Assembly (NCBI GenBank): GCA_036172245.1
Contig: JAYWIR010000004.1
Span: 2,356,001 to 2,420,000 of the forward strand
Source: Raillietiella orientalis
Lineage: Eukaryota
Direction: 5' to 3'
Length of the DNA: 64,000 nt
Shown: piece after piece, positions 19,764 to 41,400 of the stretch
How positions within the stretch are numbered: position 1 is the first letter of the stretch
Layout: each line of letters starts with the position of its first letter
Notes under the pieces: generated by a model
What the model saw: the letters and a program-made list of their open reading frames with translations, nothing else
Databases searched by the model: none
Told to the model about the DNA's origin: nothing
Program-made: the position numbers and the translations under genes

Positions 19764-22700
19764 ATGATCATGGATGTGGATCGGTGGATCGAAATAGCAA
19801 AATCGTGCAAATATCTACCAGAATTTGATCTAAAAGTAAGCAGCAAATTCTATTCTACAACCTTTTACAGCAAGTAGAAAATTGCAACCAATCGAAGATA
19901 TGGTTAAACATTATTCATGTTACATATACAGAAATTGATGAAAATGGGACATGATAGCATTGTAGTAGATTACATTAATTGATGAATTACATAGGCTATT
20001 TTTTAATCATCTAACAAAATCTTATGATGTTAATTTGATATCACTAACAGTATTAGTGACTGCGGAAAATTTCTTAAATATTACAATGTATTTCCCATTT
20101 GAATAAGTGTAAAAGCCTTGTACCTTGTGCACAGAGTTTCATTAATAAGTTTTCCCATACTAACGAAACAATTATTCCGGAGGTATTGCTGATAAAATTA
20201 TCTTAATCATATATTTCAAACCTCACTCTCTTTGTTACAATTGTATGATTTGTAAGCGGAATGTTTCTTACAGATTTAGAAAAAATAACAAAAGAAATTC
20301 TGCAAAAGAAATGAAAAAGGAAAATTTCTTGTTGAATTATAATTGCAATGATTGCATTCATTGATTTTATATAATTGTATCATATACAATATTTTTAGAA
20401 ACTTTGTGATCTGGTCTGTGATATTTTATTAGAAGAATCGAACATTCAGTCTATTATCTCACCAGTTACAGTATGTGGTGACATTCATGGACAGGTATTA
20501 AGATTAGTCAGAAATGATATTTTTAATGCTCAGTTTACAATTCAGTTTTATGACCTTGAAGAACTCTTCAAAACTGGTGGTCAAATCCCTGACACAAAGT
20601 ATATATTTTTGGGAGATTTTGTTGACAGAGGTTACTATAGTTTAGAAACACTCACCAGATTACTAACTCTGAAAGCAAAATGGCCAGATAGAATTACTTT
20701 ATTGCGTGGCAATCATGAATCAAGGCAAATCACACAAGTGTATGGATTCTATGGTGAGTTGGAACATAGCAGAAATTAACACAATGCATATTTTTTATAT
20801 GGGCATTCCCTCTGTTTTCTATTAATGATTTCAAATGTTTTTGTTGCTCAGTCTATGGTTGGATTGGGCTGCAATTGTTCATTATGTGGCAATTCTTCCA
20901 TGCCATTACTTTGTTGTGCATTACAGCAGACATCCATGCTGCTTCCAGATAACCCTTCCCTCATGATTAGTTGATTCTCATGAGATTTAAGGGAATATAT
21001 GGAAATTACCGGACATTTCCGATGCTTTCCAAAAGATCTTTTGTTCTCAGCTGTTTCTGTTTGTGGATCATTTTTTTTTGGTAATAGTTTGTTCCTGTTG
21101 TCAGTTGCCTTTTTTTTGCTGCAGAATATTGTCAGGTTTCATTTTAAACTGACTAGAATTTTGCATTCATAGAGACTGATAAACAAAATATTTGATGTTT
21201 GAACTTCAGAATACTCTCTCCTCCGTGATATACATAAATTTTCCTTTCATGTTGGAAAGCATACAAGTTGCTAACTGGCAGTTTTTATTATTGTTCACTT
21301 TTTATATGACAATGTTTTCCAGATGCATTTACTTGTTTTTTTCCTGCTTGTACTTCACTTTAGGACATCCACTTGTTTTGCATCACAATATTAGTAAGGA
21401 ATTCATTCATCAAATTGCGTCTAACAATTTTGAAAGTGGAGCCAGTGAAGTGTAATTTTATGATGGGACCTTGTTTGTGAACTTCAGTGAAGTGTAATGC
21501 TTCATTTCCTTGCATTGTGCCTGTTTATTTTAGAATGTTAGCCTTTATGAGATATGTGATCCTTTTTTGGTCTTTTATTAAAATTCGTTTTCTATCGTGA
21601 AATTTTTTTTCCTGCCTTTATCTTAAATTGCCTTATTTCATCAAGCTTTGATTTGTTTTCAACCTGGATGCTGTATGTTTGAGCTGTGCTTTTTGATTAT
21701 CAATAATAAACATTTAGATCTTGAAGTTCCATAGAAATATTTCCTACATTACTTAATTGTATGCAAGTGCACTTTTCCTTGATAATGTAAGCAATTTTAG
21801 GGTTGAAAACTTACTGAATGCGAGATTAAACAAGGAAAATATGCAAATTGCATGCTTAGCTCAAATGTTTAGTTCCTTTCCAATGTCTTGAAAGTAACAT
21901 AACATAAAAGGCATGTGCCAGTTGATAGCGTATCTTGTTTCCTAAGTTGGTAATTTTTATATTAGGCATATAAATAAGTACAACATTTAACTACTTAATG
22001 ACAAAAACAATCCATCAATTGCATTTGTTTCTTACAGTCACTTGAATTTCTCATTTGTTTAATTGGTGTGTGCCAATCTATTAGTAGCCCATGCTGTACA
22101 TCTAACATTTTCTCCTTAATGTTTGCTATTAACAGAAGAGTGCAAATGAAATAAGTGTTACATTGATTTAATGTGCATTGCAGATGAATGTCAAAACAAA
22201 TATGGCAATGCAGTAGCCTGGAGATATTGTTGTAAAGTATTTGATCTCTTCTCAGTAGCAGCGGTGAGTTTGTAGAACATTATAGAAGGAACATGTACTC
22301 TTTAGTTGATTGATAATAAGGTTTTGTGTGTCCATGGAGGACTATCTCCAGAAATCACTCAGCTGGACCAGATTCGAATTTTGGAAAGAAATCAGGAGAT
22401 TCCAGCAAGCGGTGCCTTCTGTGACCTTGTATGGTCTGATCCTGAAGAAATTGAAGGTTGGGGAAGAAGTCCACGTGGCGCTGGTTGGTTGTTTGGTGCC
22501 AGAGTGGTGCATGAATTCCTGGAAATGAATGGACTCCTCTTGCTATGCAGAGCTCATCAATTAGTGCAAGAGGGTTATAAGTACATGTTTGATCAACAGT
22601 TGGTTACTGTGTGGTCTGCACCTAACTACTGCTACCGTTGTGGGAATGTGGCAGCAGTGCTCACTTTTTTATCAGCCACACAACAAGAACCTAAAGTTTT

Positions 22701-22764
22701 CAATGCTGTACCAAATGACCAAAGAATAATTCCCCCAAGAAACTTTACTCCATATTTTCTATGA
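19764..22764 (+). CDS. PPP6C: Serine/threonine protein phosphatase 6 catalytic subunit (~304 aa, 5 exons)
   Basis: Exons 19764-19835, 20399-20494, 20546-20753, 22184-22263 and 22306-22764 with GT-AG introns; joins in frame (915 nt). PPP motifs GDIHGQ, GDFVDRG, RGNHE, HGG and [13 protein letters not shown]6-typical CKYLPE.DLK, KYMFD..LVT and C-terminal TPYFL. Start could be 19764 or 19770. Confidence 0.95.
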
Positions 22765-22795: not shown

Positions 22796-23836
<1,041 letters not shown>

Positions 23837-23869: not shown

Positions 23870-24150
23870 TTCTTTTCTATGTTCCACATATTCATTCGAT
23901 CTCTGTAATCACACGAAAAACACCAAAATCCAGCTCATGCGTGGACACGTGTTCGCACACAAACTATAGCCCAGACAATACGAGAGCCTTGAAATTAGAC
24001 TTATTAATATTCACCATTTTTATTACTATACGTATGCATACAATAACCTTTCTCAAAAGCAATTACGCTTATTTTCCTCCAGGAGAATCAAATTTAATTG
24101 GTTAACGACAAATTTCATTGTTTACGATCAGTTTTCATTTCAGCGGGCTT
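23870..24150. promoter_or_regulatory. Probable (bidirectional) promoter region between SURF4 and plus-strand exons
   Basis: CpG-containing patch upstream of the SURF4 ATG with an E-box CACGTG at 23946-23951; divergent gene geometry. Inference only. Confidence 0.35.
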
Positions 24151-24845
24151 TCCTAATTTGTAAACACCTAATATATTTTGCTAAGAGTTACGAAATATAC
24201 TAAAAACGAACCACACATGAATATTGATTTGTACTTTATATAGGGGATTTTTCTTATTCTAGATGATTATTCCTTGTATAAAAATAAAAAACATGAAAAC
24301 ATACTCGTAAAAGTGTCAATAACACACTTGAGTATTGATTTCTAACAGTCTTTAATCTCAGTAATAATAGGTCCTAAGTTCAAATACTGATTTCCATAAA
24401 AGTCTTAAAAAGAGAATTGGATTATCAAAATGCTAATTGTTATCGAAATATGAATAACATGACAAGCAAAAATTGCACATTTGTAAAGTATTGATTCCAT
24501 ACTCATTTTGCATTAATATATACTCTGTGTTTGTAACTTATTCAAATAACATGATCAGCCAATAATTGATGAGTACATTTATATATGTATAAATTATTCT
24601 GAATAACTGAGTTGATAACAGCAACTTCAATTCTTCAAGATAATTGTCTAGATGACTTATTGTTCTAAAGATAATTTCTCAAAGTCGTAATGGTTAAGTT
24701 TAAGCAAATGTGTATACTTAATAATAATTATTCTGCTGAAATGAAAACAATGTCATAGTATAAGATTGTTTGTTCTCTCTACAACGATTAATTCAAGTTA
24801 ATAAGTCTTCATTTGTTTTTGTTTTAGACCCTCTCTTAGCTTCAA

Positions 24846-25203
24846 ATGCAAAGAGTTTCTACATCTAGTGGATCAAATTCACGAAGAGCTTCTTTTGTTT
24901 CTTCTGATAGTAAGTATGCTGGCAGAAAAGGCATTTATCTAAGTTCTGAAACAATACTTTAGATTAATGTTCTTTGCAGCTAAAACTTTTCATGGTGTAA
25001 AAAAACATTTTGTAAGTATTTGGATGAATTAAGATATGCTACTTGCAAAATATTTGGTATTTAATTCCAGTATGATGCTTGAATTTAAATTTTAGATACT
25101 GGAACAATTAAGAATAGTCAAGAACCTCGATGTGAGGACAGGTATTAACCTGAAAGATTCAGTGAATTTTCTTAGCAGAAAATCTGGATGCGTGTTAACA
25201 TGA
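24846..25203 (+). CDS. Candidate 67-aa three-exon micro-ORF (or spliced uORF in the PPP4C leader)
   Basis: Acceptor ttttag|24828, ATG 24846. Exons 24846-24909, 24980-25011 and 25096-25203, with two GTAAGT donors and tttgcag/ttttag acceptors. Reads MQRVSTSSGSNSRRASFVSSDTKTFHGVKKHFILEQLRIVKNLDVRTGINLKDSVNFLSRKSGCVLT*. No recognised homology. Confidence 0.4.
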
Positions 25204-26100
25204 ATATTTTTTTGTAATTAATGATCATTCCTTTAAAAATTGTACTTTAATAAGTCAGTTTAACTTTGAGGAAATATGAAATAAAATATAAGGGCATATT
25301 GTAAGGAGGCTTAAGTGAATCTGCTAATTAGCTATATTAAGCTGTAATAGATAAGATAGTAATATTAACGATCCAAAATTCTATTCAATGTAAATAGAAA
25401 TTTTCGAGTAATTTTGATTAATCTGATCCAGGTCTTTATCACTAGGCAGTTATGTAGATTAACTGGTTAGATTTTGCACTCGTCATTCTTTGAAAATAGG
25501 AGTTTCTTTAAGGAATGCGTTTTCTTTTCCAGTTAGTGAGATTTCCAATTTGTTTTTGATTAGCAATGAATTCTTTCCTTAACTTTATCACTTTATATAT
25601 GAAATATATATTTTTTGATTTCCGAATCAAGTGATTTTTTGTCTTTTTATCAGTTGTAATTAGGACTGCAATAGTTTCATGAATTTGTTTGATATATGTA
25701 AAATTATTTTTAAAATGAATATGTATTTAAATTTCGATATTTAACATCCAAAATTTGAGAAAAAACAAAGATGAACATATGAAGTTCATATGCTTTAACA
25801 ATCGCTATTCAAACGGTTTGAAAGCCCTGTTATAATTTTAAATTGATTTTCCTGTTGTTAAAAAGTGCTTATTGAATACCTTAAGCGCATTAAGGAGCAG
25901 ACGTGTAATTCGTTGATTGTATTCGAACTAGAAAGAAATGATAAGTGCTTTTTAGGCATTTCTTTAATAAGAAAATAAGAAAATCATCTTCTTGTTGCTT
26001 TATGCTTTGACTTATGTGGGTACTTCTGATCATCGATTTAATAGCAATAACGTGAGTTCGCGGATGAAAATTTCTTTTGTATTATGAGAAAAATGACATT

Positions 26101-29100
26101 ATGACATCAAACTGTAGTGATTTAGATCGACAAATAGAACAACTTCGTAGGTGCGAAATCATTAAAGAATCTGAGGTGAAGAGCTTATGTGCCAAGGCTA
26201 GAGAAATTTTGGTTGAAGAAAGCAATGTACAACACGTCGATTCACCAGTCACTGTAAGTGTTTTGGTTATTTTTCTGGTCTCCTTTGTTTTGTTTTGTAA
26301 TTTAGAATGCTTTCAAATCATCCTATGGTTCTTAGATGCATTTTTTGTATAACTATCAGAGCAGAAATATTGCATTCTTGTTAGCAGCCCCACTTTGATG
26401 CTTTTTATTCTTGAGCATGCAATAGTTTTTATGCTCAGTAATCTCAATGAACTTTTTGGATCACACTTTAATGCAATCCGATTGTGTTTCATATGCATTC
26501 GGTAATGAGCAATCGTTTTGGAAAAAATTATTTCTTGTTTGTTTACGTTCCATGTGAAATATTCTCCATCGTTATTTTTGTTTTTTTAAGAATAACTAAA
26601 TAAATTGAGAGACAATTCAGACCAAGAAAGATGTGAAATGCATGTCTTGTTAAATTCGTGAACCATGTCTTACCCTAATATTCTGATGTATAAAGTTCCG
26701 AATCCTCCCATATAACTAAATGTAAAACTTAATTTAAATTAACTAATAAGACAGCTAAACAAAATGAGTATCTTTTTTGATGAAATTTTTCTTTTCAATT
26801 CCGTTTGCAGACCATGCTTTAGATTTTGTATTCCATAAGTTGCAAGTTCCAGAGCATAATGCTTGCAATCTTGCAATTTTAGTCTTTGTCTTGGAACTTA
26901 TCATTGCTGTACTATGAATGAAATGCTAATGCTGTAGATCATTTACAAAGGCAAAATGTGTCTTCTTTATTAAATATTTGGATATTTTTGCTTATTAATA
27001 TGCTTTAATAAAAAATTCTTTGATCACATGAATCTAGAAAGGTTAGCATTATAACTTGTTATTAACATTATTGTTATAAGTTGGAAAACTTCAAAGTTTG
27101 TCACATATAAGTAACACTGTTGAAGAATTTCAAAGTCTTATCCCAAACTTATTTAGTATCATTCTTTTTAGTATGAGAAATTTTTGTATTTTAATGTCTT
27201 TTTTGAATCAGAGAGTGTCTTTTTTGTCACTACATTAAGGAAGGTCTTGTAGCATGTAGTGTTACAGCTAATGAATTGTAGGGAAAACTTGTTATTTCCA
27301 GACCTCAAATCAGCGTAATATTAATAAATCATTTCAAAATGCTAAAAGCTGTGATCATATTTCAAGCTTTGATGTATGGAATTCTTTCAACACAATCACT
27401 CCCTTGCTTTTTATATGTTGCTTTATAAACATTTGATAATTATTTTTTGATTGATCTGCAGATCCTACATATTTTGAGAGTTTATATTTGTGGAAATACA
27501 TTCAAAATACTCTCTAATAAGATGTTGTATTTTATCGAAATTAAATGATAAGGAATTATCGAAAATTCCTTTTCATTTTATTGCATGTAAGATTTAACCA
27601 TCAATTTTATAAATCTGGATTTGATGTTCGAAATTCTTTGAGTCATTTTCCATAGTTTTTTTTATCTTTTCTATCTACAGAATATAGAGGAATTTGTCTT
27701 TTAAAATTATACATAAATTAATGCAGAATTTACAATGTGGCTGAAATTCATTGATCTTTGTCTAAACTCTGTTACATCATCATAATATTAGCAGGTATGT
27801 TTTTGTAATGTACAACTTAAGCTTTTTATCGCACAAATTGGCCATTGAATATTTATGACCCACTACTGAAATATACCAAAAAAACAGTCAGTTCTTTCCC
27901 CTAGCTTAGCTTGGACCCTTGAATTACATTATTTCAGCATTAATTGAGATCTTTTCCAGTAAAATTAAAAATTGTTTTCATTTGCCTCTGTTTAGACTAG
28001 AAGCATTGAAATTTAGGAGAAAATGAAATAATTGTGCAGATTTTTCGTATCTGTATTCTCTGTAGTATTGCTGATTTGTACAACATGGAGGTTTTCTATT
28101 TTGCCATCAGCATTTAAAGCATGTTGATATCCGAATTTTTTGTCTGATTCATAATAAAATAATAGTCCTAGTGATTAAAGATTCACTCGAGATTGAGGAT
28201 TACTGTGGTAGATTATTGTTCAGCTGTTGCTGTGTATGAATTCTTAGTCACATAGTGTTGAGCACATTGTCCTTTCAAAAATCAACCATATTACCCATCT
28301 TGATGCAAAAGATGCTTTACGAAATAAATGCCATAATAGCTGTTTGTTATATACAAAATTATTGTGTGCTCACTTGGTAAGTGTAAAACTACTTTTGTGT
28401 TTCATGTAAGTACACTTTGTACATTTAGTGGTATGATTTCTTTACAATTTTTATGGAACCTCTCCAGTGTCTTGAGAAATGTGTAATGTTCAAATACTTT
28501 ATTTATTTTTAATCTTCAATTAATGTTTTATTAAACTGAATTTCTCACTATGAAAAATCCCATCATTAAATCATTTGTGACTCCCTCTTGGCATCAACAG
28601 CTCCTTAAAAATTCTTTTCCAACAGTCTGTTCAGTACATTTATTTTATTAGCATGTTTTTTTAAAAAAAAAAATCACCGTTTTTTGGTTTCTTGGGTGGT
28701 GATTGCAGGTACAGCGTTTATCTCTTATAATGTCTTGGGTTGACCAAAAACATGGGATCAGGTCTCATCAACCACCTCAAGATGAACATTATGAGGTGTT
28801 ATTGTCACTTCATTGCTGCTAATTTTATTTTCCTCATCCATTTTTACAACACCTGTTTGATCTTAATATTGGTAACTATTGGATAACTTCAATAATCGGT
28901 TTTGTTGATTCAGAAGTGAATGAAGCAACAGTGACAAATCCTGGTGGACTCTTAAATGCAGAAAAATTTTCAGCTTTTTGCCATATCAAAGTGCAAACAC
29001 ATCACTCATCCACCTTACCATTTACCTGCTTACCTAATATTTGTGAGAACCTGTTCTCAGTATATGTTTTGTTTCTAATTAGTTTTTCGGCATTTTGATT

Positions 29101-32100
29101 CTGCTTCTCTTCTGTGTGTCCAAGTAAATTGTATGATTGGCTCAAGAATGCAGTTTACAGCACAAGAGTGTTTCAGCTATTTGAGTATCCTTTGCAGTCT
29201 TCAGCTAGTTTTCCTGGTTTCCATATCTTAGGTTTCTGTTTTCTATGGTTGGACCCAATTTGTGTTTGACTATGATCTTGAAATCCTATCGAAACAATTA
29301 TTGGATCTTTCCTATGTTCTCAACTAATTTATATTGCCAGATTAAGTAATTTTTAAAAAAGTTTGTTGGTTCTTCATTTCCTTTTCACCTAATTTGCAAA
29401 ATACAATTTCATGTAATTGATTTTGGTTGTTTAGATTACAGTTGATGTGTTCAGAAAGAGCAGGGAGATTGGAACTAATTCGCCATCAAAATCACAGAGA
29501 CAGAATCACAACCCTGATGCAGAACTTCCATTTTCTAAACAGTTTGAAGTTAAAATGTTGAATTAAATTAAGATTCAAAAACTGCAACAAAAGGTTTACT
29601 ACCATTTTCAACATGTTTATGATTTGATGATTCAGTGATATTTACCAAAAGTCTAAGATCGATATGGATTGAAAATCAAAGACTTAAAAACAGACTGGTA
29701 AAAATGTTTAAACATCGAATACATAAGTCTCTATTAGAAAAATTGTGCCAATTAGAAATCCAATTAAGGGTCTACAATCTGTGCATATATCATAAGCAGC
29801 TATGTTTTAAGCGAACTAGCATAAAAAAGCAAGACTTCAAAATTGAAAGTGAGATGCGCACATGACTCATATTTTCTCAAGAGGGATCTTCATTTGTCCA
29901 CTTGATTTCTGTGATCCAGTGACGATTCTTGCCTCAATTCTTTTGCTCAAGTAGAGTTTTTTTTTCTTTCCACTCACAGAATATGTGTTTCAATCGAAAG
30001 CATATGTTAAGCTTGTTTTATATTAAGATTTGTTTTTTGAGGATAGAATTCTTTGTTATAAATGCATAAAAACTCCACCATTACTAAGCTTAGATGTTAG
30101 GTTTTCATGTTGTCGTTTTTCTGTTTGTTATTCCCTTTCAGGAGATTCCTAAACTTCCCATTTCATGCCAAGTTTTTCGTTTTGCACAAAAATAGTTTGT
30201 TGCATGCATTAGATAACATTATGATATGCTTCTCCTTTCATCCTCTCCCAAAGATGATGGCTTAATTTGCCATCCAGTTCTTGCTTGCCTTTGCTTTCAA
30301 TAATGTGAATGCTTTTATTAACATTTTTGGTTTTTACTCTGATTATGATACAATAAAAGGTTTGTAAATAGCTTTTTACACATGACAGTTTTTTGTACTC
30401 AGATGCTAAGTAGTATATGCAATAATACCCAGTGGTCGCTTTCCATAAAACCTTCGGACGTTTTCACTCAAAGAATTCATGAGATTCATGTATCAATAGT
30501 GAGCGAGAAAAGAAGGAAAAAAAACAGGCACAGTATGATTTGTGAATATGCAGATATAAATGGGAGTGTGGTTTCTTTTCAATCATCTTAGAAGACCTAA
30601 CCATAATCTGATTTCTAAGTGGTTTTTCTTCTGAGCAAATTCTGTACTTATTTTGTTTATTTGTTGCCATCATATAGAGTATTGTATTAATATTACCCAC
30701 TGCTGCTCGTTTTGGTTTTATGGCATTTTACATGTCTTAATGCAATGCTCCTCATGGTATTTCAACTTTTAATTGAAATTGTTTTCAGTCATAATAGTTG
30801 ATTGCTGTTTTAGTTTTGAAGATAATGAAGATAATTGTGTTGGTTAGCATCTTTCTCATTGTTCATCGTATCGTTCAGTTTTTTGATTTAATTCCAAATT
30901 CAAAATATTTTGATCATAAAAGTAATAAAAGAGGAAAGTTGACTTTGTTTCTTTCTGTAATGCCTGGTTGTGGTACCAAACTTCTTATTGAATATTTCTG
31001 ACACAAAAGACCCAGTTTTTTGACCATGTGTGTTTGAAAATCTAAGTCCTTTACCTAAGTAAGTAAATATACCATTTTTGAAAATATAAAATTGAATTAC
31101 AGATAAGTGAATTACAGGTAATCATTATAATGATGTTGATGCTAATGTAATACTTGTTTTTTGTTCGTGAGGTACTCTGACACTGTGACAGGAGATAGCT
31201 ATGCTAATAGAGATTTGTAAATATTCTAGATCACTTGGATCAGTGATAATGCTGGTATCTTAGACCTGTAGCAAACAAAGCAGGAAGTTCTGTAGGTCTA
31301 TAAATGGTTACGGTAATATTTAAGAAATAATTTTGATAATTTCTTTTGGAGGAAGTGTCTCTTTACATGCAGAAGCTTCAAGATCTGATTTCCATGTAGA
31401 TTTTAGATTTTCGAGATCCGTTTATCAATTTTTGTCCTTTCTGTTTGTTTCACCTTAAAATGAAGTTATTTAAAATTTTGCCTTTACTATTGTTCGCTTA
31501 TTTTTTATTAGCATTTGTTCCTGTGTTTGTACCAGTTTATGTTATACTTGTATATCCATTTATCCAGATAAAGGTATATCCTTCACTTAATGATGAAAAA
31601 GTCTAATGTTTACTTTTCTTTTTCTATTTTCCCCAATTTTCGCCACAAAATTGAAGCAGTTTCTATTCTATTCATGGTATGATCGAAGTATGTTAATGGT
31701 TAATCCTTTTGTAAAAATCTGTATGCCTTGCACTTCTTGCTGTTTTTGGAGTAAATATTTATTAAATCATAGTCGTAGATAGTGGGGGATGGATTCTCAT
31801 ATATTATGTGGAACCCAAACATTTATATGTAAGTCCCTAAATTTAAAGAGCCTGCATTTCAGTAAAGGAATGAATAAGTGTGAACTAACAAGTAAAGTTT
31901 TATCTCCGAAATTGCACAATGATTTCTTAATGAATGAATTAACGAAGTTTTAATAAGTAAATAAATTGTTAATTTGAGTGATGTAGTCTTGTCCATTGAG
32001 CATGTAAAATTTTGTTTTAGTAGTAGAAAGTATTTTAAACTGTTTTTAAAGATGTCATGAATATCCTGAATCTTTTTCAGGTATGTGGAGATATCCACGG

Positions 32101-34816
32101 ACAATTTTATGATCTTCGGGAGTTATTCAAAGTCGGCGGTGATGTTCCTGATAGAAATTACCTTTTCTTAGGAGACTTTGTTGACCGAGGATTTTTTAGT
32201 GTTGAAACATTTTTGCTGCTTTTAGCTCTCAAGGTATCTGAAAAACTAAAAAAGTTGCATTTAATTTTTTACGAAATGTATTAATATTTTTTGATATTTG
32301 CTGTTTAACCATGTGGATAATCATTTTTAGTGGTGAATGACATATTTATTATTGCAAAAATTTACGCCTGTAGTATTTTTATGTGTAATATGTTTTGATG
32401 CATGTTTTCAATTCCAACTAGGTTCTGAAAGTCATACAAGAAAATAAACAAGCATATAAAAACCAATATTTTCTCAGTGTACAGGATAATATTCACATGT
32501 TTTAGTTTTGCATACTTTCACATTAAACTTTTATTTGCCAGTTTTGCACTTAGAATCGTACATATCAACAGATGCTCTCCTATAGTTATTTGTTTAGGTT
32601 GTAGTTGTTTAGAATTTTTTATAAATAAGCAACGTTTTTGTACATAACAAGCATTTCGTTTAGCACATTTAGAGGTAGTTTTAATTTTCTAATAGAAAAA
32701 ACAAAGGATTTTTTAAATTCTCAGAAAATATTGTGATAGGTTGTGCCACATATTGTGTTATTCCTTCATTGAATGCTTATAGCAAACCCTTAATGTGACA
32801 CTGGACTGTGGAATTCTTGTTTCAAAATAAATTCTGTTAAATTCATGGTGAATTCATATTCTAAAGACATATAATAGTAGATAAAAATACATTCATAAAA
32901 GTTAATGATTTGATCATCATCATTACTCTATTTTATCCCATAGAGAACTTGTGGCCATTATTTTAACATGTAATAATTCATCTTTCTATCACCGTTTATA
33001 TTAAGACGTGTAGCATGTTTTTTTTTTAACTTTTTAATTTTAGTGAAGCTGTCTTTTGATGATTTTCTTTTTTGTTTACTTAGTATTACAACCGCAACCA
33101 CTATGTTTGCTTTGTTAAAAGCTTTAAGATAGGTGCGTTTAACAAGGAAATAGAAATAAGTGGGTCAATGAAAACACGATTTTGAAAGCTCATTTTGATT
33201 GTGACTTGTTGCATAGTTTCATGTTCAGTGCACACTGATGATGTATGCTTGTAATTTTGAAAATCTGAATCCCATCTATGATAGTTGGAAATTCAAATTG
33301 GAGAAAATCTTGATTTGTTTAACAGTGGAATCTTCTCCCTCCCTCAGCTTTTTATATAAATAACCTATTGGCTAAACCATTGGTGATTTCATGATGAATC
33401 AAACAACCATTTGCAGATAAATTCATAATGTGCATTCTGACTAGAGCTAGCTTCCTGAATTGAACTGATTTGTTAGTTTGAATCTTGGAATGTATTTACT
33501 ATGAATCCCTTACCAGTTATGCTGTGTGCACATATAATGTTTCTGTAAAATTCAAGAAACGTTTAAGAAACTTCCATTTCAGCCATATGTAATTAGTTAA
33601 TTTATAGCATTCCATCCGACCACATGCTACATCACTTGCATGAATGTATTCTTGACTGAAAGTAGCATTCAGCATCATTCAATTTTCCTTAACAGTTGAT
33701 GAAGTCCATTTATCTAGCATTTGGCTCCAATTTTAGCAAGCTACATACATAACTGATTACTGTTATTGCTTTAAATAATAGTATCATGTAGATCAGACTG
33801 CAGTAAGTCTTAAAAGAAATCTAATAACTCCATATTCGAGTGATTTAGGTCTAAAATAGATAACACTTGTATTGCAACATTCTCAATTTATCATACAGTG
33901 CAGTAGAGAGAGGAAACGGAAAGAGCTATTTAAAATAATCTGCTTAAATTTTGAATGCTCTAAAGGAATAGAAGGTATTCACTCTACAAAGCATTATCAA
34001 ACAGAATCCAAGTAGAAACTGCACAAAAAAATTATGCTTAATAGGACTTTAAAAATGTAATTGTTATCAATTTTTATTCACATCAAGGTGTTGTTCTTAT
34101 GCAGGTACGATATCCTGATCGCATCACTTTGATTAGAGGTAATCATGAATCTCGACAAATAACACAAGTGTATGGGTTCTATAATGAATGCTTAAGAAAA
34201 TATGGAAGCAGCACTGTCTGGAGATATTGCATGGAAATTTTTGATTATTTGAGTTTATCAGCCATCATTGATGACAAGGTGAGTTTAAAGTAAAGCAATA
34301 TGATAGATGATGATTGTAGATATTTTGTGTTCATGGAGGACTTTCACCTTCTATTCACACTCTGGATCAGATACGTACAATAGATAGAAAGCAAGAAGTC
34401 CCTCATGATGGTCCAATGTGTGATCTGTTGTGGTCAGATCCTGAAGGTATTTATCTAAGTAGTACTCCATTTGAGGTGTACATGTAATATAAACAGATAC
34501 GCAAGGTTGGGGAGTAAGCCCACGTGGAGCAGGATACTTGTTTGGTTCTGATGTAGTTGCCCAGTTCAATGCAGCAAATGACATTAACATGATCTGTAGA
34601 GCACATCAGTTGGTGATGGAAGGATTCAAATGGCATTTTAATGAGACAGTTTTAACTGTATGGTCAGCACCCAATTACTGTTACCGTTGTGGCAATGTGG
34701 CTGCAATTTTGGAGCTTGATGAAAATCTTCAAAGAAACTTTACTATATTTGAAGCTGCTCCCCCTGAAATTCGAGGCCTCCCTATGAAAAAGCCACAACC
34801 AGATTATTTTTTATGA
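26101..34816 (+). CDS. PPP4C: Serine/threonine protein phosphatase 4 catalytic subunit (~308 aa, 5 exons)
   Basis: Exons 26101-26253, 32081-32233, 34105-34278, 34320-34446 and 34497-34816 with GT-AG introns; in frame (927 nt). PP4-typical [61 protein letters not shown] and C-terminal DYFL. Confidence 0.97.
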
Positions 34817-34902
34817 TACTCAGGATGTTCAAGTTTTTATTTACAGAAAATAGATTATTTATTACGAAACTGCTGTATATTAACGACGTTTAGCACTACT
34901 AA

Positions 34903-34964
34903 TATGCCTGGCAAGACAGTGGTAGCCTTGAGCAACCATTTTTTAACCACTGCTTGTCAGCATA
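34903..34964 (+). other. Intergenic RNA hairpin (19 bp, two 1-nt bulges) between PPP4C and SIRT4
   Basis: TATG-C-CTGGCAAG-A-CAGTGGT (34903-34923) pairs with ACCACTG-CTTGTCAG-CATA (34946-34964), with one G-U pair. Confidence 0.6.
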
Positions 34965-34992
34965 ATTTGCTTGTTGCAAATTGTATTTACAG

Positions 34993-36962
34993 ATGAAGAA
35001 CCTTTCCAAACTCTGTTGCTATTCTACTCAACTCTTCTGTGTACCCCATTGTGAGCATCCTTCTTCTCATTCATTGCTTGAATTACAGACGTTTGTAGAG
35101 AATCATTCTAAACTCCTAGTGCTTACAGGAGCAGGAATATCAACAGAAAGTGGCATTCCAGACTATAGGTCTCCTAGAGTCGGTTTGTTTGAAACTTCCA
35201 AGCATACCCCAATGAAATATGCTGAATTTGTCAGGAATGCCCAGAAGAGAGCATTATACTGGGCACGTAGCTATATTGGATGGCCTTACTTTTCCTCACG
35301 TACTCCTAATAAAGCGCATTTATGTTTGAAGCATTGGGAGTCACAAGGTCGCCTTCTTGGGATCATTACACAGAATGTAGATAGGTTACACCAGAAAGCT
35401 GGTAACCATCAAGTACTAGAGCTGCATGGCACTGTCCATGAAGTGCATTGTCTACATTGTGGCTACCTATTTGATCGTCATGCATTTCAGCTGGAACTGA
35501 TGAAAGCCAATCCTCATGTGCTCCTGCCTAACATGGGTAATTTCCAACCTGATGGAGATGTTGGTGTACAGGTATTCCAATTATTTGAAGGAATGTCAAA
35601 AGAATAATATACAATCAAGATAACAAAAAGTCTTTTCTCAGACTGAAAGCATGTATCACAACTGTAAAATAATTACTCTTGCATTTAGTACTACAGTTGT
35701 GTTTTTTTGTATAAACAATAATACTTTCTTTACATCTGTTGTAAAAACATGCTAAAATCCTCAATGCATTTGAGCTTGATTAGTTCTGTCAATGATCAGT
35801 ATTACACAATGAACATTTCAGTGATCTCCCTTGCAATATTTTATGCTTTCAAAACGAACAGGTACTGTAGTTGTACATAAAAGTAGACCACTTTGTTTAC
35901 AGATATCGATACTTTGCTATTTCAGAAGCAAGAAAGTGCTTTTTAATGCTGAGATTTTTTTCATGCTCACATATACCATGTTTTAGAATGTTGAAAATAC
36001 AAAACAACCATTTTGGTTACTGCAGATTTTACACTTTTAACAAGCAACTTGCAATGGTGCTTATTGTAACACTACCAAAACACGAAAATTGCAGGTGTTA
36101 AAGCTTGAGATTAGTTTTTTATCATCTGTATCACAGTTTCGCATACTTCAAAGAAATGTACTTTGCCGAGCCGTTTGTGACCTTATAATAAATAGGACTG
36201 CACAAAGAAAATTGTAAAAAAGATCTTTAGGCAGAAATTTTCGGAAATGGATTGCATTGAATTAACCAATGAAACAATGCGTTTTTCCAATTTATAAGTT
36301 GCCGAAGATTAACATATGCACTTCTAGAAAGAAATGAGATCTAGGATTCATCAAGTACTTGAATAGTACCATTTATCCCTAATTTATTTCTCATTTTTAC
36401 ACAGTTATTAAATATAAGGCTTTAATTTGATATAGCTTACAATTTTTAAATTTTGCTTCCTTTGTTCCAATTTACGAAACGAAACATTCTCTGTGGAAAT
36501 ATGTGAACCTCAATGCATGATTTTACTATCCTGAGTCCTTAGTGTCACTGAAATAGTACACATAAATGTGTTTGATTGCCATTTATAAACAAATATGTGA
36601 AGACAAATGGGAGAACTCGATGTAAAAATATAATGTTCATTACTTTCCAGATAGAAAACTTCCATGTTCCACTTTGTGCCAAATGTGCTAATGATACACT
36701 TATCCCAAGTGTAGTATTTTTTGGAGATACTGTGCCTGCTGAACGTGTTGCCCACGCTTATGATTTAGTAAATAGAGCACAAGCTCTTCTAATTATTGGC
36801 TCATCACTATCTGTGTATTCAAGTTACCGGTTTGTGGATTATGCATACAAACAGGGGAAATCCATTGCCATTCTTAATGTGGGACAGACAAGAGCTGATG
36901 CCTTGTGTCATGTTCGTGTGCATGGACTGGCAACTAATGTTCTTTGTCAAATAATAGTGTAA
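34993..36962 (+). CDS. SIRT4: NAD-dependent sirtuin, class II / SIRT4 (~296 aa, 2 exons)
   Basis: Exons 34993-35571 and 36651-36962 (CAG|gt ... ttccag|ATA). Motifs LTGAGISTESGIPDYRS, YWAR, TQNVDRLHQKAG, ELHG, CLHC...CAKC zinc site, PDGDV, VVFFGD and GSSLSVYS.YRF. Confidence 0.93.
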
Positions 36963-37004
36963 CCTAGTACCTGCCAGATTCTTTAGAATCGCAGCAGGAC
37001 TAGG
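36963..37004 (+). other. RNA hairpin (16 bp) immediately after the SIRT4 stop codon
   Basis: Stems CCTAGT/ACTAGG, bulged A, CCTGC/GCAGG, small internal loop, GATTC/GAATC, and a TTTA loop. Confidence 0.65.
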
Positions 37005-37049
37005 AGCTTTTATTTTAAGTAATAATCAGTAAATTGTCTATTACAATAG

Positions 37050-37812
37050 ATGGCATCCTTGCAGAGCATTACATCCAACTGGGACCCTCAAATGACCATA
37101 AACTTTGAGCCAATTCTTAAAAGCCTGCAAGGAATGGATAAGCAGCAGATGACTGAGCTGCTTGAAAATCCCAAAAAATTAGAAGATCTGATTTTGAGTT
37201 CAGAACAGGTAACAGAGTAATGTCACATAGTGGTGCAATTTAAGTTAGATAAAAACTTGTCAAGCCAACAAAGATATTTTGTTAATGAGCAATAAGTCCT
37301 TGGCAGAACAGAATGTGTCTGAAGGAGAAACTTTAAATGAATTGCGCCAACAAGTAAGCTCCCTCTATGAGGAAGCCAAAAAACTACAAGCTGATATTGA
37401 TGATAAACGCCGAAATCTTAGTAATGTACCAAACAACCAAGTAGCATGTAGTATTTTTTTTCTTTCAGACCAGCTAGAAAGTGGCCATAGATTGGAGACT
37501 GTTTTAGCTTTGTTGCAAACTTCTGCTGTGCAGGCAGAGGATAAAAGCGAGGCAAGCATTAACTTTGGTAACTACAGTATGACTGAAATTCCTTAGGCAA
37601 TTGCACAGGAATTTCTAAATGGACAGAAAAGTGTGGAATCGTTCCTGAAAAATTTCCAAGATCTGAGAAAATTAGCACATCTCAAAAGAGTTAAAGCTGA
37701 CAAACTCTCAGAAATTTTACATAATACTCCCTCCACAACTACAGCAACTCCTTATCCATTATATCCTCCTTCCTTGTTGTCAACACCTTATCCTAATATG
37801 CATGCATCTTAA
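37050..37812 (+). CDS. VPS37: ESCRT-I subunit VPS37 (Mod(r) domain, Pro-rich tail; ~209 aa, 4 exons)
   Basis: Exons 37050-37208, 37249-37420, 37469-37551 and 37597-37812 (last intron GC-AG). Motifs N.SLAEQN and AEDKSE|AIAQEFLNG.KSVESFLKNF...RKLAHLKRVKADKL; C-terminal TPYPLYPP..TPYP; VPS37B/C-like. Confidence 0.88.
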
Positions 37813-37870
37813 TCACAATACAGATAAGCACCATTTCAAATGTTAAATTTATTTTCAGTTTTGTCAGGAT

Positions 37871-38437
37871 TCAAAAACGTGCAACACAAACAATATAGAA
37901 ACATACAACCATAACGATCAACAATATGAAGTTAAACTGTCTTTCATAATTGGAAGGCTGCAGATCTTTTTGAATCTTTTGTTGGGCCTGAGCAGCTGAA
38001 TAATGAGCTTTCCACCATTCATCAAAATTAAATACTGCTGTTTTTCTTGATACAGGATGTAAAGATTGTTTCCTTACTTCATGACGCACAGGTCTTCGAA
38101 TTTCATGCATCTTTGGTTGGGCAGAAGTATTATGTATTACACCTTTGTCATATTGGTGACGTGAATGATAATCACTTAATACATTGTAAGCATTTGTGAT
38201 TTCATGAAAAAGAGAAGCTGCTTCTGGACTTTTATTGACATCTGGATGGTACACCTTTGATAATTTGTAATACGAATCTTTAATGTCTTTGGCAGTAGCC
38301 TTTGGTGACAGTTTTAGCAAATCGTAATAATCAACTTTGGAACTAAACATACAGTAACTGGCATGTTTATGCAATGCAAACATTGACAGTACTGATACCT
38401 TATTTGAAAGCAAGGAGCGAACTTTTGCAGCATACAT
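37871..38437 (-). CDS. DNAJC30: Mitochondrial J-domain protein, DNAJC30-like (188 aa, single coding exon)
   Basis: Basic presequence-like N-terminus; J domain DYYDLL...IKDSYYKLSKVYHPDVNK...AYNVLSD..SRHQYD; DNAJC30-type FNFDEWWKAHY; C-terminal hydrophobic transmembrane segment. Confidence 0.85.
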   Translation of the reverse strand: MYAAKVRSLLSNKVSVLSMFALHKHASYCMFSSKVDYYDLLKLSPKATAKDIKDSYYKLSKVYHPDVNKSPEAASLFHEITNAYNVLSDYHSRHQYDKGVIHNTSAQPKMHEIRRPVRHEVRKQSLHPVSRKTAVFNFDEWWKAHYSAAQAQQKIQKDLQPSNYERQFNFILLIVMVVCFYIVCVARF

Positions 38438-41400
38438 TTAGCCAGTTTTTCTTGTTCATAGATTCACATGCAAAATTCTACCATAGCAACAAACAAGAAC
38501 ATACATTAAAAAGAAATTTTGAAAAGTTGCTTACCATGCTACAAATTTTGCAGATATCTTATTAAACGCCAAAGAGTAAATCAGTAATCGTATGTGTCAG
38601 CAAAGACCACATTTTCCTTCTTTTGATGAATTGTAATGCAATGAATAGTTATACCTCAACTCCCTTGACCATGGGCAAACGCAGCTTACAAAACAATCCG
38701 TTAACTCTTGCTGGATAGATTCAACTATTGCAGCAGCAACATCTGAACCACATACATATACCAACAACGTCAATTCTTCGAAATAATAAAAATTTCAACA
38801 CTGTACAAATTAGTGGTTCATTTTAATGAACGGATGGCAGTTAACACGTCATTATTTAATGGCCATTACTCAAGTTATTACAACACTTGGTGTTGACAAA
38901 TTTCGCTTACAGCTCAAGCCATATTCTACCAAAATTCACAAACAATATTTGCACAACTTGGCAACGATCTGCTGGCAGAAATTCATACGTTGTCGAGCAA
39001 AACATGAAACTAAAAAACTGGAACTGAATTTCCAACATTCGTCAACTTTTGCCGCACGTACAGCCAAAGCGCGCACACACCCAGGTTTTCAAGATACTCT
39101 TCTACAAAACTAAGCTTTCTAATAGGTGACTGCATGCACAATTTTAGGTGTATACATCATATATATACACATAATATATATATATACATTCTTTTGCTGC
39201 ACGTACATTCTTTTTTTACTTCTGCATTCGTTAGCAACAAATACTTTCAGTGAAGATTTCGTTCAGAGACCACGAAATTCAATCAGGACTTTTAAAATGC
39301 CATTCAAGTGGTAACAAGCACGAAAGAAGGATCTTCTGCAGTTTTTTACCAGATCAAAACAATCCTCTTTATACATAACGATTATAGCTGTAGATTCATA
39401 GCGCTTTATTTTCAGGTAAACTAATGAATGAAACGATGGATGCATCCCCTTTGATCATCTTGTGTGACTTGTTCCAATTTCCATAGCGCTTTCTCTCATT
39501 TTTTATCTTCTAACAAACTTAATTCTGAAAGTCAACTTTCTCTGAGTTTTTTTTTCTAAATCCATTTTGTATGCTGTATTTTAAAAAATTCCGCAGTTCT
39601 TTTTTTTTTCATTGAATTCAATTTCATTTGCTAAAAATCCCATTCTGTTCTGGGGAGATTGCATTTTCTTAAAAAAAGGAAAATTCCCATAAACTAGAAA
39701 AACTCAGTGCTGATGACTACATTGGATTTGTCAGTCAAAGTTACGTCCTGTCACAAATTTTCTTATGAAACCTATTAGTAAACAACAAATCGCTGAATGG
39801 CATTTTCAATCTTGGCCGGTCTGTTACTTGGGGATGAACTGCTATCAGCCAAAGAAAACCTGGTCTGAGGAAACCTGGTTTCTTCATGGACAGCTGTGTG
39901 ATAAGTGTGAGAGTAGTTGGGCCACGCAGAAAACAAATCAATTTTTTTCTTAGGAAACATCCTTTAGCATCGTAGTAAATTTAAACTTTATTAATAGGCT
40001 CCACAATATGACCTTTGACCTTTAACCACAAGAGTCTAGAATTCAAATCAACGTAGACACTTCTTGCAACTTCGCTCATTCGATCTTACTCAGATGTAAG
40101 GAGACTAATGTCATTTGATGTATCATCTTTATATTCTCTGCAAATTTTGAGCTGTTAGCTCAAAACTGAAGAAAGCCCACTGAAATGAATTCATCTCAGT
40201 GGTTTACATAAATGCAATTGCAGGCATGTTAGCTTATTCAACAGATACTCGGACTTGCACATGATCAGCAGCGGTCTTTGAAATTTGTTTGTTCCGAACA
40301 GCTAGAATTCAATATCTCGTTGGTCTTTTCCCAATGTTGCTGAATAATCCATTTATAATGAGATTTAAGTTATGAAAATGACAAGGTACACTTCAACAAA
40401 ATTAAAACGTGGCATTATTTTTAAGTCCTTATTAACTTCTTTATCACAAAAATTATATCCTTTAGTTATGCTTAGAAGCAAAGCTCAAGTGAATTACAGA
40501 ATAACTGTTACATTATGAAACTGCTGAATAATTGCGTGTTTTGGGGGTGGAACGTCCGTTTTATTCAAATTTTTGTGCTAGACAAATGCTCCCGCATGAT
40601 ATATGCGTATTAAACATTGTAAAGCTAAAAATCGAAAAACATTCCTAACACTGAGCAGAAGGAATGCTTCGTGAAATCTTTACACGAAAACACATGTTCC
40701 AGCTGTACTGTACGAAACAGATCATCCGTAAATATGTACATACAGTTCTTATGGAGTAATGTTGCAGTTAATCTTAAAGATTGAAAACACTGAAACAGAA
40801 GTGTCATTTAAAAATTACAAATGTTTCATGCTTCACTTGCTTATTACAAGTGCTACGCCTTCTCCCTAATAGGCATTAGGCCAGAACGCACGGTTAATTT
40901 TCTAATTTGACTAATTTCACAAGGCATGGAGTATTCATTACTGAGTATGGTAAGCGAGGGCGGAACAGAATCTGGTTGAGCTGATGTGCCCTGGCATGAC
41001 CTCAGAACCACATCATGAACTTTCAATAACTAGTTTAACTCTGGCCTATGTCCACATCACGCGTGTACTTGGTACCTTTGCATCCGGCAATTTACGTGTT
41101 ACTGATTTATACTATACGTGAGATATGACTCCCTAAAGGTCGCCCGAGTGCTTCCACGTCCAGATACCCTGCAACAAAACCAAATCTGAAAGGAAACTTA
41201 ACGTCATCAGAGTCTGCCTACCATCGATGTCCCACAGAGCAGGGCACTCCGCTTTTAAAAATGCAATGTAAGTGAAGGCGGTCACTTAGCAAAACGTGAA
41301 AGCGCGATAAACGTGAAGAACACATCAAGAGAAGCCATCTAGATCGAATACTAAAATTCGAAACATGCTTTTTTGTACTCAGCATCTGCGTATGTTTGGC

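What the first reader, a model, noticed from the sequence alone, without database searches (positions are those of the whole stretch)
26101..37812. Operon-like PPP4C-SIRT4-VPS37 unit with structured spacers and AG|ATG acceptors
Seen: three unrelated genes on the same strand, separated by only 176 nt (34817-34992) and 87 nt (36963-37049). Neither spacer contains AATAAA, and neither leaves much room for a 3' UTR plus promoter. Both downstream start codons are directly preceded by a 3' splice-site-like sequence (ttgtatttacag|ATG at 34993; tctattacaatag|ATG at 37050). Both spacers contain a strong bulged hairpin upstream of that acceptor. Known: SL trans-splicing operons occur in nematodes, tunicates and flatworms with ~100-nt spacers, and shared-first-exon gene pairs exist (unc-17/cha-1 type). 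The proteins here look arthropod-like, where operons are poorly described. Inference: one precursor is resolved into several mRNAs by trans-splicing or long-range cis-splicing from a common leader, possibly guided by the hairpins.
Basis: partly seen in the sequence, partly recalled or inferred. Interest (0 to 1): 0.78.

Follow-up and report, generated by a model that had tools for sequence, protein, structure and literature searches.

The report
Tightly packed three-gene tandem, possible operon
Three unrelated housekeeping genes sit head-to-tail only 176 and 87 bases apart in an arthropod-like genome, each gap holding an unusually strong RNA hairpin, but without RNA data it cannot be decided whether they form a true operon or are just crowded, overlapping genes.

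Summary
The anatomy is real. A PP2A-family phosphatase of PP4C type (26101-34816), a SIRT4-like sirtuin (34993-36962) and a VPS37/Mod_r gene (37050-37812) lie on the + strand, with 176-nt and 87-nt spacers. Both downstream ATGs follow YAG. Both spacers hold hairpins that rank 4th and 7th among all 60-nt folds in 48 kb.

Three parts of the argument weaken.
- AATAAA is missing after 5 of the 6 genes examined, so its absence says nothing.
- Only the SIRT4 acceptor looks like a local 3' splice site (top 0.4% of positions). The VPS37 one is chance-level (about 10% of ATGs score as well).
- Convergent neighbours are 31 and 58 nt apart, so crowding at gene ends is general here.

In one metagenome relative, PP4C and SIRT4 are adjacent but convergent, so this is not an old operon. 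The nearest named relatives (one marker, weak support) are acariform mites. My literature searches found no report of spliced-leader trans-splicing in mites or chelicerates.

No RNA data or genome could be reached, so co-transcription is untested. My odds are:
- about 0.4 for separately promoted, overlapping genes with a 5'UTR intron in SIRT4;
- about 0.2 for an SL-trans-spliced operon;
- about 0.1 for a shared leader exon.

The hairpins remain unexplained.

The parts
26101..34816 (+). PP2A-family catalytic subunit, PP4C type. Five exons: 26101-26253, 32081-32233, 34105-34278, 34320-34446, 34497-34816. Stop TGA at 34814-16.
   Evidence: ORFs. Junctions read (the donor offset for PPP4C_i1 is 1 nt low; boundaries re-derived by frame). 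Best solved relative is the PP2A catalytic subunit, E 9.7e-36. 91% identical to the phosphatase in L001. The PP4C label comes from recalled terminal motifs.
34817..34992 (+). Spacer 1, 176 nt. No AATAAA or ATTAAA. Two ATGs. A second TATTTACAG lies at 34838-34846. A GTATAT candidate donor lies at about 34874.
   Evidence: The donor was read by eye.
34906..34962 (+). Hairpin 1: bulged stem of about 16-17 bp with a 23-nt loop. It ends 30 nt before the SIRT4 ATG.
   Evidence: -21.7 kcal/mol, z -3.2 on + and -1.4 on -. Rank 7 in the sliding fold. No other copy in the window.
34978..34992 (+). 3' splice-site-like sequence aaattgtatttacag abutting the SIRT4 ATG.
   Evidence: Matrix score 5.6. Matched by 0.38% of positions and 12 of 2064 ATGs.
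34993..36962 (+). SIRT4-like sirtuin. Exons 34993-35571 and 36651-36962, with a 1079-nt intron between.
   Evidence: Pfam SIR2. Named Sirt4 hits, best 54% identity. Junction.
36963..37049 (+). Spacer 2, 87 nt. No ATG. No AATAAA, but AATAAT at +59 and AGTAAA at +66 from the stop.
36963..37004 (.). Hairpin 2: a 42-nt near-palindrome starting at the first base after the SIRT4 stop. It ends 45 nt before the VPS37 ATG.
   Evidence: -21.2 kcal/mol (+) and -22.8 (-), z about -6.4 on both strands. Rank 4 in the sliding fold. No other copy in the window.
37050..37812 (+). VPS37 (Mod_r) gene. Exons 37050-37208, 37249-37420, 37469-37551, 37597-37812. Introns of 40, 48 and 45 nt; the last is GC-AG.
   Evidence: Pfam Mod_r. 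Junctions.
37871..38437 (-). Convergent DnaJ-domain gene (188 aa, single coding exon), 58 nt from the VPS37 stop. It closes the cluster.
19764..22764 (+). PPP6C-like phosphatase upstream. Context only.
22796..23836 (-). SURF4 gene. Convergent with PPP6C (31 nt between stops) and divergent from PP4C (2264 nt between ATGs). Context only.

Best explanation
The three genes are most likely ordinary, separately promoted housekeeping genes crowded into a gene island where neighbouring transcription units overlap.

In this reading, each downstream gene starts transcription inside or just behind the gene in front of it. Each upstream 3'UTR runs into the next gene. SIRT4 carries a 5'UTR intron that ends exactly at its ATG. 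The donor could be the GTATAT at about 34874 (a 119-nt intron containing hairpin 1), or it could lie further upstream. The tag|ATG of VPS37 is coincidence, or the acceptor of a similar intron.

The two hairpins would then be RNA-level or DNA-level elements that keep the crowded units apart, for example by aiding 3'-end formation or termination of the upstream transcript.

Shown: the gene structures, the spacing, the quality of each acceptor, and the hairpins. Inferred: the promoters, the 5'UTR intron and any hairpin function.
For: - Crowding is general at gene ends here. Convergent stops lie 31 nt (PPP6C/SURF4) and 58 nt (VPS37/DnaJ) apart, so transcripts must overlap anyway.
- Canonical poly(A) signals are rare. 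AATAAA occurs after 1 of 6 genes and ATTAAA within 20 nt after 1 more. For PPP6C and VPS37 the first listed signals lie at +189 and +215, inside the opposite gene.
- Local introns are often tiny: 40-51 nt in 7 of the 12 measured. Their donors include gtattt, gtattc and gtatct. A GTATAT...TTTACAG intron of 119 nt inside spacer 1 therefore fits local usage.
- DnaJ appears to have a short 5'UTR intron of the same style (read by eye).
- The VPS37 acceptor is no better than about 10% of ATGs.
- In metagenome locus L001, with the most similar phosphatase (91%), SIRT4 is the neighbour but on the opposite strand, 322 nt stop to stop. L002 and L008 have other neighbours. The same-strand arrangement is therefore not conserved.
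- The nearest named relatives by PPP6C are acariform mites at 75%. [quoted passage not shown]
- I found no report of SL trans-splicing in this group.
Against: - This reading does not explain why two of the eight strongest local hairpins in 48 kb fall in the 263 nt of the two spacers.
- It does not explain why the convergent junctions have no such hairpin.
- An 87-nt gap leaves no room for promoter plus 5'UTR, so the VPS37 promoter would have to lie in SIRT4's last exon or intron.
- The other same-strand gap in the window is 3538 nt. In Demodex the median distance between coding sequences is 1293 bp (PMC9218549). Gaps of 87-176 nt are therefore extreme.
- A strong acceptor exactly abutting an ATG is rare (12 of 2064 ATGs).
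- YAG|ATG at both downstream genes and at none of 4 other starts is what a processed polycistron would predict.
- The ATCGAT motif found upstream of the PPP6C and PP4C starts is absent near the SIRT4 and VPS37 starts.
Confidence: 0.4

Rival explanations
1. SL-trans-spliced operon. One promoter upstream of PP4C drives a precursor through all three genes. The upstream mRNAs are cleaved and polyadenylated in the spacers. A spliced leader is then joined at AG 34992 and at AG 37049 (or at the better acceptor at 37029). The hairpins act like nematode Ur elements, marking the intercistronic region for the trans-splicing machinery.
For: - Same-strand spacers of 176 and 87 nt. Nematode intercistronic distances are about 100 nt (PMC7986045, passages).
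- A strong acceptor abuts the SIRT4 ATG.
- YAG|ATG at 2 of 2 downstream genes and 0 of 4 other starts.
- Exceptional hairpins 30 and 45 nt upstream of the acceptors. Hairpin 1 folds better on the sense strand.
- Variant signals AATAAT and AGTAAA sit 20-30 nt before the VPS37 ATG. As I recall, this matches SL1-type and Ciona operons that lack an intercistronic region; PMC7986045 states this for Ciona.
- SL trans-splicing has arisen many times, and within arthropods it occurs in copepods and amphipods (PMC7986045; PMC5111886).
- Ur elements direct SL2 trans-splicing in nematodes (bioRxiv 10.1101/642082, passages). That they include a stem-loop is my recollection.
Against: - No leader, SL RNA gene or transcript could be examined.
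- The lineage is not known to trans-splice. PMC7986045 lists insects as lacking it, and I found nothing for mites or chelicerates.
- The VPS37 AG|ATG is chance-level.
- A cis donor is available in spacer 1.
- Acceptor-like sites within 100 nt upstream of the six ATGs are no better than in random windows (24-86% of random windows do as well). There is thus no sign of pervasive trans-splicing.
- The relative L001 has the pair convergent.
- Rfam finds no SL RNA or other RNA family here.
Confidence: 0.2
2. Shared-leader locus. A non-coding 5' exon of the PP4C unit is spliced in cis either to PP4C's own exons or, over 9-11 kb, directly to the acceptors at the SIRT4 or VPS37 ATG. This is the unc-17/cha-1 type.
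For: - Both downstream ATGs abut AG.
- A consensus donor GTGAGT lies at 26052, 49 nt upstream of the PP4C ATG and 15 nt downstream of an ATCGAT motif.
- RNA-pairing-guided splicing choices, including genic trans-splicing, are documented in the mite Tetranychus urticae (PMC9258826, abstract).
Against: - No complementarity beyond shuffles was found between either spacer and 25900-26500 (107 and 44 of 200 shuffles were as good).
- The VPS37 acceptor is weak.
- Such loci are rare, and those I recall join functionally linked genes. These three are unrelated.
- GTGAGT near a start could equally belong to a small 5'UTR intron of PP4C.
Confidence: 0.1
3. Unprocessed di- or tricistronic mRNA. The downstream ORFs are translated by reinitiation or internal entry, with the hairpins as IRES-like or coupling elements.
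For: - Short spacers, and spacer 2 has no ATG.
- In the PP4C frame the whole of spacer 1 is open for 59 codons. It ends in a TGA that overlaps the SIRT4 ATG as ATGA. About 1.7% of positions in the AT-rich intron give an open run that long.
Against: - The upstream ORFs are long (about 300 aa), which, from general knowledge, disfavours reinitiation.
- The conserved C-terminal ...DYFL of the phosphatase argues for a real stop.
- Spacer 1 has two ATGs.
- There is no evidence for IRES activity.
Confidence: 0.05

Closest known systems
Nematode SL2-type operons (C. elegans and other clades)
   Same: - Unrelated housekeeping genes on one strand with spacers of about 100 nt.
- A TTTACAG-type acceptor right at the downstream ATG.
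- A structured element upstream of the acceptor, at the place where Ur elements act (bioRxiv 10.1101/642082; PMC7986045).
   Different: - No SL, SL RNA gene or polycistronic RNA has been shown.
- The organism groups with arthropods, not nematodes.
- The hairpins are much longer than the short Ur stem-loop I recall.
- The second acceptor is weak.
Tunicate operons (Ciona, Oikopleura) and SL1-type operons without an intercistronic region
   Same: At the SIRT4/VPS37 junction, variant poly(A) signals lie 20-30 nt before the acceptor and ATG. The poly(A) site and the acceptor could therefore coincide (PMC7986045).
   Different: - In Ciona the median intercistronic distance is about 1 bp (PMC7986045). 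Here the spacers are 87 and 176 nt and are structured.
- The lineage is not known to trans-splice.
Overlapping or crowded tandem genes in compact arthropod (acariform mite) genomes
   Same: - Short distances between coding sequences and short introns (PMC9218549).
- Convergent neighbours here are 31 and 58 nt apart, and mini-introns are 40-51 nt.
   Different: - The window is not uniformly compact: it has introns of 1.1-5.8 kb, a 3.5-kb same-strand gap and a 16-kb GC-rich repeat block.
- The hairpins are not a known feature of such crowding.
Shared-leader loci (unc-17/cha-1) and RNA-pairing-guided splicing in chelicerates (Tetranychus sDscam)
   Same: - An acceptor at the ATG of a downstream gene.
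- A precedent for RNA structure steering cis- and trans-splicing in a mite (PMC9258826, abstract).
   Different: - No docking or selector complementarity was found.
- The genes are functionally unrelated.
- The unc-17/cha-1 comparison is recalled, not tested.

Membership tests
SL-trans-spliced operon | Two or more same-strand genes with very short intercistronic spacers | tested here: met
   Spacers of 176 and 87 nt. The other same-strand gap in the window is 3538 nt.
SL-trans-spliced operon | A single polycistronic precursor spanning the spacers | not testable with these tools
SL-trans-spliced operon | A common non-genomic leader on downstream mRNAs, and SL RNA genes in the genome | not testable with these tools
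   No genome is held. Rfam finds no SL RNA in the window. Sm-site-like motifs occur at chance level: 30 found, 30.3 expected.
SL-trans-spliced operon | A functional 3' splice acceptor upstream of each downstream cistron, with no cis donor available | tested here: inconclusive
   The SIRT4 acceptor is strong (top 0.38% of positions). The VPS37 acceptor is weak (9.8%), though a better one lies 20 nt upstream. A candidate cis donor GTATAT lies inside spacer 1.
SL-trans-spliced operon | Lineage known to perform SL trans-splicing | tested here: not met
   The nearest named relatives are acariform mites, with weak tree support of SH-aLRT 83. Searches gave no report for Acari or chelicerates. The taxon call is uncertain.
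SL-trans-spliced operon | Arrangement conserved in relatives (not strictly defining) | tested here: not met
   Among the three loci with at least 88% phosphatase identity and at least 0.9 kb downstream: L001 has SIRT4 convergent, L002 has a different convergent gene, and L008 has an eIF1-like gene about 0.8 kb downstream.
Shared-leader (unc-17/cha-1 type) locus | A common 5' exon with a donor that is joined to alternative downstream acceptors | tested here: inconclusive
   GTGAGT at 26052 is a candidate donor. No junction evidence exists. No spacer-to-leader complementarity was found.
Dicistronic mRNA with translational coupling | Mature mRNA carrying both ORFs, with a short or AUG-free spacer | tested here: inconclusive
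   Spacer 2 has no ATG and spacer 1 has two. An open frame runs through spacer 1 and ends in ATGA. The mature mRNA is not testable.
Overlapping, separately promoted tandem genes | Independent TSS for each gene | not testable with these tools
   No CAGE or RNA data. The ATCGAT motif lies upstream of PPP6C (303 nt) and PP4C (69 nt), but not within 300 nt of the SIRT4 or VPS37 starts. One TATCGATA lies in the SIRT4 intron at 35903-35910.

The most novel reading that the evidence does not exclude
This is a true operon in a chelicerate-like (mite-like) arthropod. One precursor covers the PP4C-type, SIRT4 and VPS37 genes. It is resolved at the two spacers by spliced-leader trans-splicing or another hairpin-dependent processing step, with the two exceptional hairpins acting as the intercistronic signals. 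That would be an independent origin of operon processing in a lineage where none is described.
Probability: 0.18. Interest if true: 0.8.

Novelty: new member of a known kind. Interest (0 to 1): 0.45.

Why it matters
If the cluster is a processed polycistron, it would add a new arthropod lineage to the scattered list of animals with operons. It would also offer a compact, structured intercistronic signal that could be dissected in minigenes.

If it is crowding, it is still a clean example of how far tandem genes can be packed: 87 nt from stop to start. It also raises a narrower, testable question: what do strong hairpins placed exactly between crowded same-strand genes do? Candidates are termination, 3'-end formation or insulation.

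Either answer needs only one long-read cDNA data set from this organism.

Tried and rejected
- **RNA evidence:** The look-up of sequencing runs (kind rna) on 32000-38500 listed no RNA holder. This is no evidence on expression.
- **Whole genome:** none is held.
- **Relatives by SIRT4 in metagenome contigs:** 94 pattern matches, none confirmed.
- **Relatives by the phosphatase's last exon in metagenome contigs:** 80 loci kept of 568 confirmed. Only 1 of the 80 (L001) also holds SIRT4, and none holds VPS37.
- **The same exon in prokaryote genome contigs:** 8 loci, 0 with SIRT4 or VPS37.
- **DnaJ protein search for taxon:** only 2 hits, at 33-34% identity.
- **SIRT4 tree:** the window sits on a long branch (2.3) and is not placed in any supported group.
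- **Protein atlas:** the machine was busy twice. I dropped it; the tool's own text says it is not for taxonomy.
- **Hairpins as repeats or mobile elements:** no second copy of either arm in 64 kb at up to 3 mismatches.
- **Hairpins as known RNA families:** no relevant match at E up to 5.
- **Spacer 1 as a duplication of the stop-proximal segment:** suggested by two short repeats (D4 and D6). The alignment gives only 61% identity, with nothing but TATTTACAGA shared. Rejected.
- **Long-range pairing between the spacers and the PP4C 5' region, or between the two spacers:** at the shuffle mean.
- **Sm-site-like motif scan:** chance level.
- **ATCGAT as a promoter mark:** 10 in the window against 14.5 expected, so not enriched overall. 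Its place upstream of two starts is only a lead, and the DRE comparison is recalled.
- **Acceptor-like sites within 100 nt upstream of all six starts:** not better than random windows.
- **First weight matrix:** it used one wrong SURF4 site. It was redone, and only one search is used.
- **PDB search with a VPS37 exon:** no hit.
Full report
**What is there**

The coordinates of the finding are exact. Five exons of a PP2A-family catalytic subunit run from ATG 26101 to TGA 34814-16. Its best solved relative is the PP2A catalytic subunit. It is 52-55% identical to PPP6C proteins and 91% identical to the phosphatase in a metagenome contig. The PP4C label rests on terminal motifs that I recall, not on a named hit.

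After 176 nt comes a two-exon SIRT4-like sirtuin (34993-35571 and 36651-36962). Pfam gives SIR2 at E 1.4e-32 and 1.6e-8, and there are named Sirt4 hits with a best identity of 54%. After another 87 nt comes a four-exon VPS37 gene (37050-37812). Pfam gives Mod_r at 3.3e-11 and 2e-8.

Both downstream ORFs are full length by comparison with homologues (for SIRT4; about 209 aa for VPS37 by my exon sum). The cluster is closed by a convergent DnaJ-domain gene at 38437-37871 on the minus strand.

**Surroundings**

Upstream lie a PPP6C-like gene (19764-22764, +) and SURF4 (23836-22796, -; Pfam E 5.2e-29). Downstream of DnaJ lies an RNF34/rififylin-like gene on the minus strand, with its stop at 41976.

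The gaps are:
- convergent PPP6C/SURF4: 31 nt;
- divergent SURF4/PP4C: 2264 nt between ATGs;
- PP4C to SIRT4: 176 nt;
- SIRT4 to VPS37: 87 nt;
- convergent VPS37/DnaJ: 58 nt;
- same-strand RNF34-like to DnaJ: 3538 nt.

Gene tails are therefore crowded everywhere here. The two same-strand gaps of the finding are still 20-40 times shorter than the only other same-strand gap.

**Which organism**

No genome is held. SIRT4 has no relative above 54% identity among the hits listed. It sits on a long branch outside any supported group.

The last exon of PPP6C is closest to an unnamed JGI protein (78%). Next come the acariform mites Brevipalpus and Oppia (75%), followed by insects and a pseudoscorpion at 70-73%. 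In a quick tree it falls with those mites and a tardigrade, at SH-aLRT 83. I read this as an arthropod, possibly mite-like, with weak support.

**The splice-site claim**

From 16 introns read in this window I built a weight matrix for positions -20 to -1. Leave-one-out scores of the real acceptors run from -4.8 to 9.2.
- The sequence before the SIRT4 ATG scores 5.6. Only 0.38% of all positions and 12 of 2064 ATGs in 16-64 kb do as well.
- The sequence before the VPS37 ATG scores -1.9. Only 2 of the 16 real acceptors score lower; 9.8% of positions and 216 of 2064 ATGs do as well.
- A better acceptor (6.4) lies 20 nt upstream of the VPS37 ATG.

YAG directly before an ATG occurs at 51 of 2064 ATGs. 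It occurs at both downstream genes and at none of the four other starts: atc, aac, att and taa before the ATG of PPP6C, SURF4, PP4C and DnaJ. So one acceptor is convincing. The other is not.

**The poly(A) claim**

Neither spacer has AATAAA or ATTAAA. However, AATAAA is missing within 300 nt of the stop in 5 of 6 genes, and only SURF4 has an early ATTAAA. The absence carries no weight. Spacer 2 has AATAAT and AGTAAA 20-30 nt before the VPS37 ATG.

**The hairpins**

Hairpin 1 (34906-34962) folds at -21.7 kcal/mol. Its z-score is -3.2 on the sense strand, with 3 of 200 shuffles as good, and -1.4 on the other strand. Hairpin 2 (36963-37004) begins at the first base after the SIRT4 stop. It folds at -21.2 kcal/mol (sense) and -22.8 (antisense), z about -6.4, with 0 of 200 shuffles as good on either strand.

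In a 60-nt sliding fold over 16-64 kb (9588 windows, mean -7.4, 0.1 percentile -22.4) they rank 4th and 7th after collapsing overlaps. Most of the competitors lie in the more GC-rich 48-60 kb part. From the density of the other six loci at or below -21.7, I estimate about 2e-4 for one in each spacer by chance.

They are not repeats within the window. They match no Rfam family. They are too short-stemmed for canonical miRNA precursors (my judgement). The convergent junctions have no comparable hairpin. This is the part of the observation that stands out and that no explanation below fully accounts for.

**Local splicing habits**

Seven of the 12 introns measured are 40-51 nt long. One of these is a GC-AG intron in VPS37. 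The others are 0.56-5.8 kb. Donors include gtattt, gtattc and gtatct.

A GTATAT at about 34874 could therefore serve as donor for a 119-nt 5'UTR intron ending at the SIRT4 ATG, with hairpin 1 inside it. In spacer 2 the only GT donors would give introns of 21-31 nt, or start 4 nt after the SIRT4 stop. A cis intron for VPS37 would thus need a donor in SIRT4 or further upstream.

**Relatives**

- A SIRT4-based scan of metagenome contigs found nothing.
- A scan with the phosphatase's last exon gave 80 loci. Only L001, the best at 91%, also carries SIRT4. There SIRT4 lies on the opposite strand, 322 nt stop to stop.
- L002 (90%) is followed by an unrelated convergent gene. L008 (88%) is followed by an eIF1-like gene about 0.8 kb downstream.
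- Eight loci from prokaryote assemblies had neither gene.

The PP4C/SIRT4 neighbourhood may be old, but the same-strand arrangement is not shared.

**Literature**

PMC7986045 (passages read) makes three relevant points:
- it lists SL trans-splicing as absent from insects;
- it lists it as present in copepods and amphipods, where operons have not been reported;
- it gives intercistronic distances of about 100 nt in C. elegans and about 1 bp in Ciona.

Ur elements direct SL2 trans-splicing in nematode intercistronic regions (bioRxiv 10.1101/642082, passages). Amphipod spliced leaders are listed in PMC5111886.

My searches for SL trans-splicing or polycistronic nuclear transcription in Acari or chelicerates returned nothing relevant. 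The one 'polycistronic' hit in a mite paper concerns mitochondria (PMC9218549). [quoted passage not shown] Genic trans-splicing helped by RNA pairing exists in Tetranychus (PMC9258826, abstract). These statements hold only for the library searched.

**Weighing**

The spacing, the SIRT4 acceptor, the start contexts and the hairpins all fit a processed polycistron. None of them requires it. Against it stand the uncertain but non-trans-splicing-looking lineage, the chance-level second acceptor, the available cis donor, the general tail crowding and the lack of conservation.

My odds are:
- about 0.4 for separately promoted, overlapping genes with a 5'UTR intron in SIRT4;
- about 0.2 for an SL-trans-spliced operon;
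- about 0.1 for a shared leader spliced in cis (a GTGAGT at 26052 is a candidate donor, but no spacer-to-leader pairing was found);
- about 0.05 for an unprocessed polycistronic mRNA;
- the remainder for something not considered.

One data set of long cDNA reads would settle it.

Noticed in passing
window 1-16000: GC is 53-56% here against 28-37% in 16-44 kb, with a sharp step near 16 kb. Many long ORFs lie on both strands, and there is a reverse-transcriptase fragment with a YADD motif at 12425-12757 (RVT_1, E 4e-5, below its cut-off). It looks like a block of GC-rich LINE-like repeats. A mis-join was not excluded.
   Followed up: partly
window 34817-34996: In the phosphatase's reading frame the whole of spacer 1 stays open for 59 codons after the TGA stop. 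It ends in a TGA that overlaps the SIRT4 start as ATGA. A 30-codon uORF from ATG 34902 shares that frame. About 1.7% of positions in the AT-rich intron give an open run that long.
   Followed up: partly
window 19764-34816: Two paralogous PP2A-family phosphatases (PPP6C-like and PP4C-type) lie 3.3 kb apart on the same strand, with SURF4 on the opposite strand between them.
   Followed up: no
window 22765-22795 and 37813-37870: Convergent gene pairs have only 31 and 58 nt between stop codons, so their 3'UTRs must overlap the opposite coding exon.
   Followed up: partly
window 20495-37596: Intron lengths fall into two classes. Seven of the 12 introns measured are 40-51 nt, including a GC-AG intron at 37552-37596. 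The other five are 0.56-5.8 kb.
   Followed up: partly
L001 1-1419: A metagenome contig has an intron-poor phosphatase, 91% identical to the window's, directly next to SIRT4 in convergent orientation. This may be an old PP4C/SIRT4 neighbourhood.
   Followed up: partly
window 19461, 26032, 35903-35910: ATCGAT lies 303 nt upstream of the PPP6C ATG and 69 nt upstream of the PP4C ATG. A full TATCGATA lies in the SIRT4 intron, 1.1 kb upstream of VPS37. The motif is not enriched overall. Its likeness to the insect DRE promoter motif is recalled.
   Followed up: partly
window 26052-26057: A consensus donor GTGAGT lies 49 nt upstream of the PP4C ATG. A 3-codon uORF (ATG 26093) overlaps that ATG.
   Followed up: no
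window 38470-38530 (minus strand): DnaJ seems to have a short 5'UTR intron (gtaagc...ggtag) ending 44 nt before its ATG (read by eye).
   Followed up: no
window 58683-58754 (minus strand): A tRNA gene, the only Rfam match at gathering score in the window (66.9 bits).
   Followed up: no
window 37501-37560: A strong local fold (-22.1 kcal/mol, rank 5 in the sliding scan) lies within VPS37, over exon 3 and the start of its GC-AG intron.
   Followed up: no
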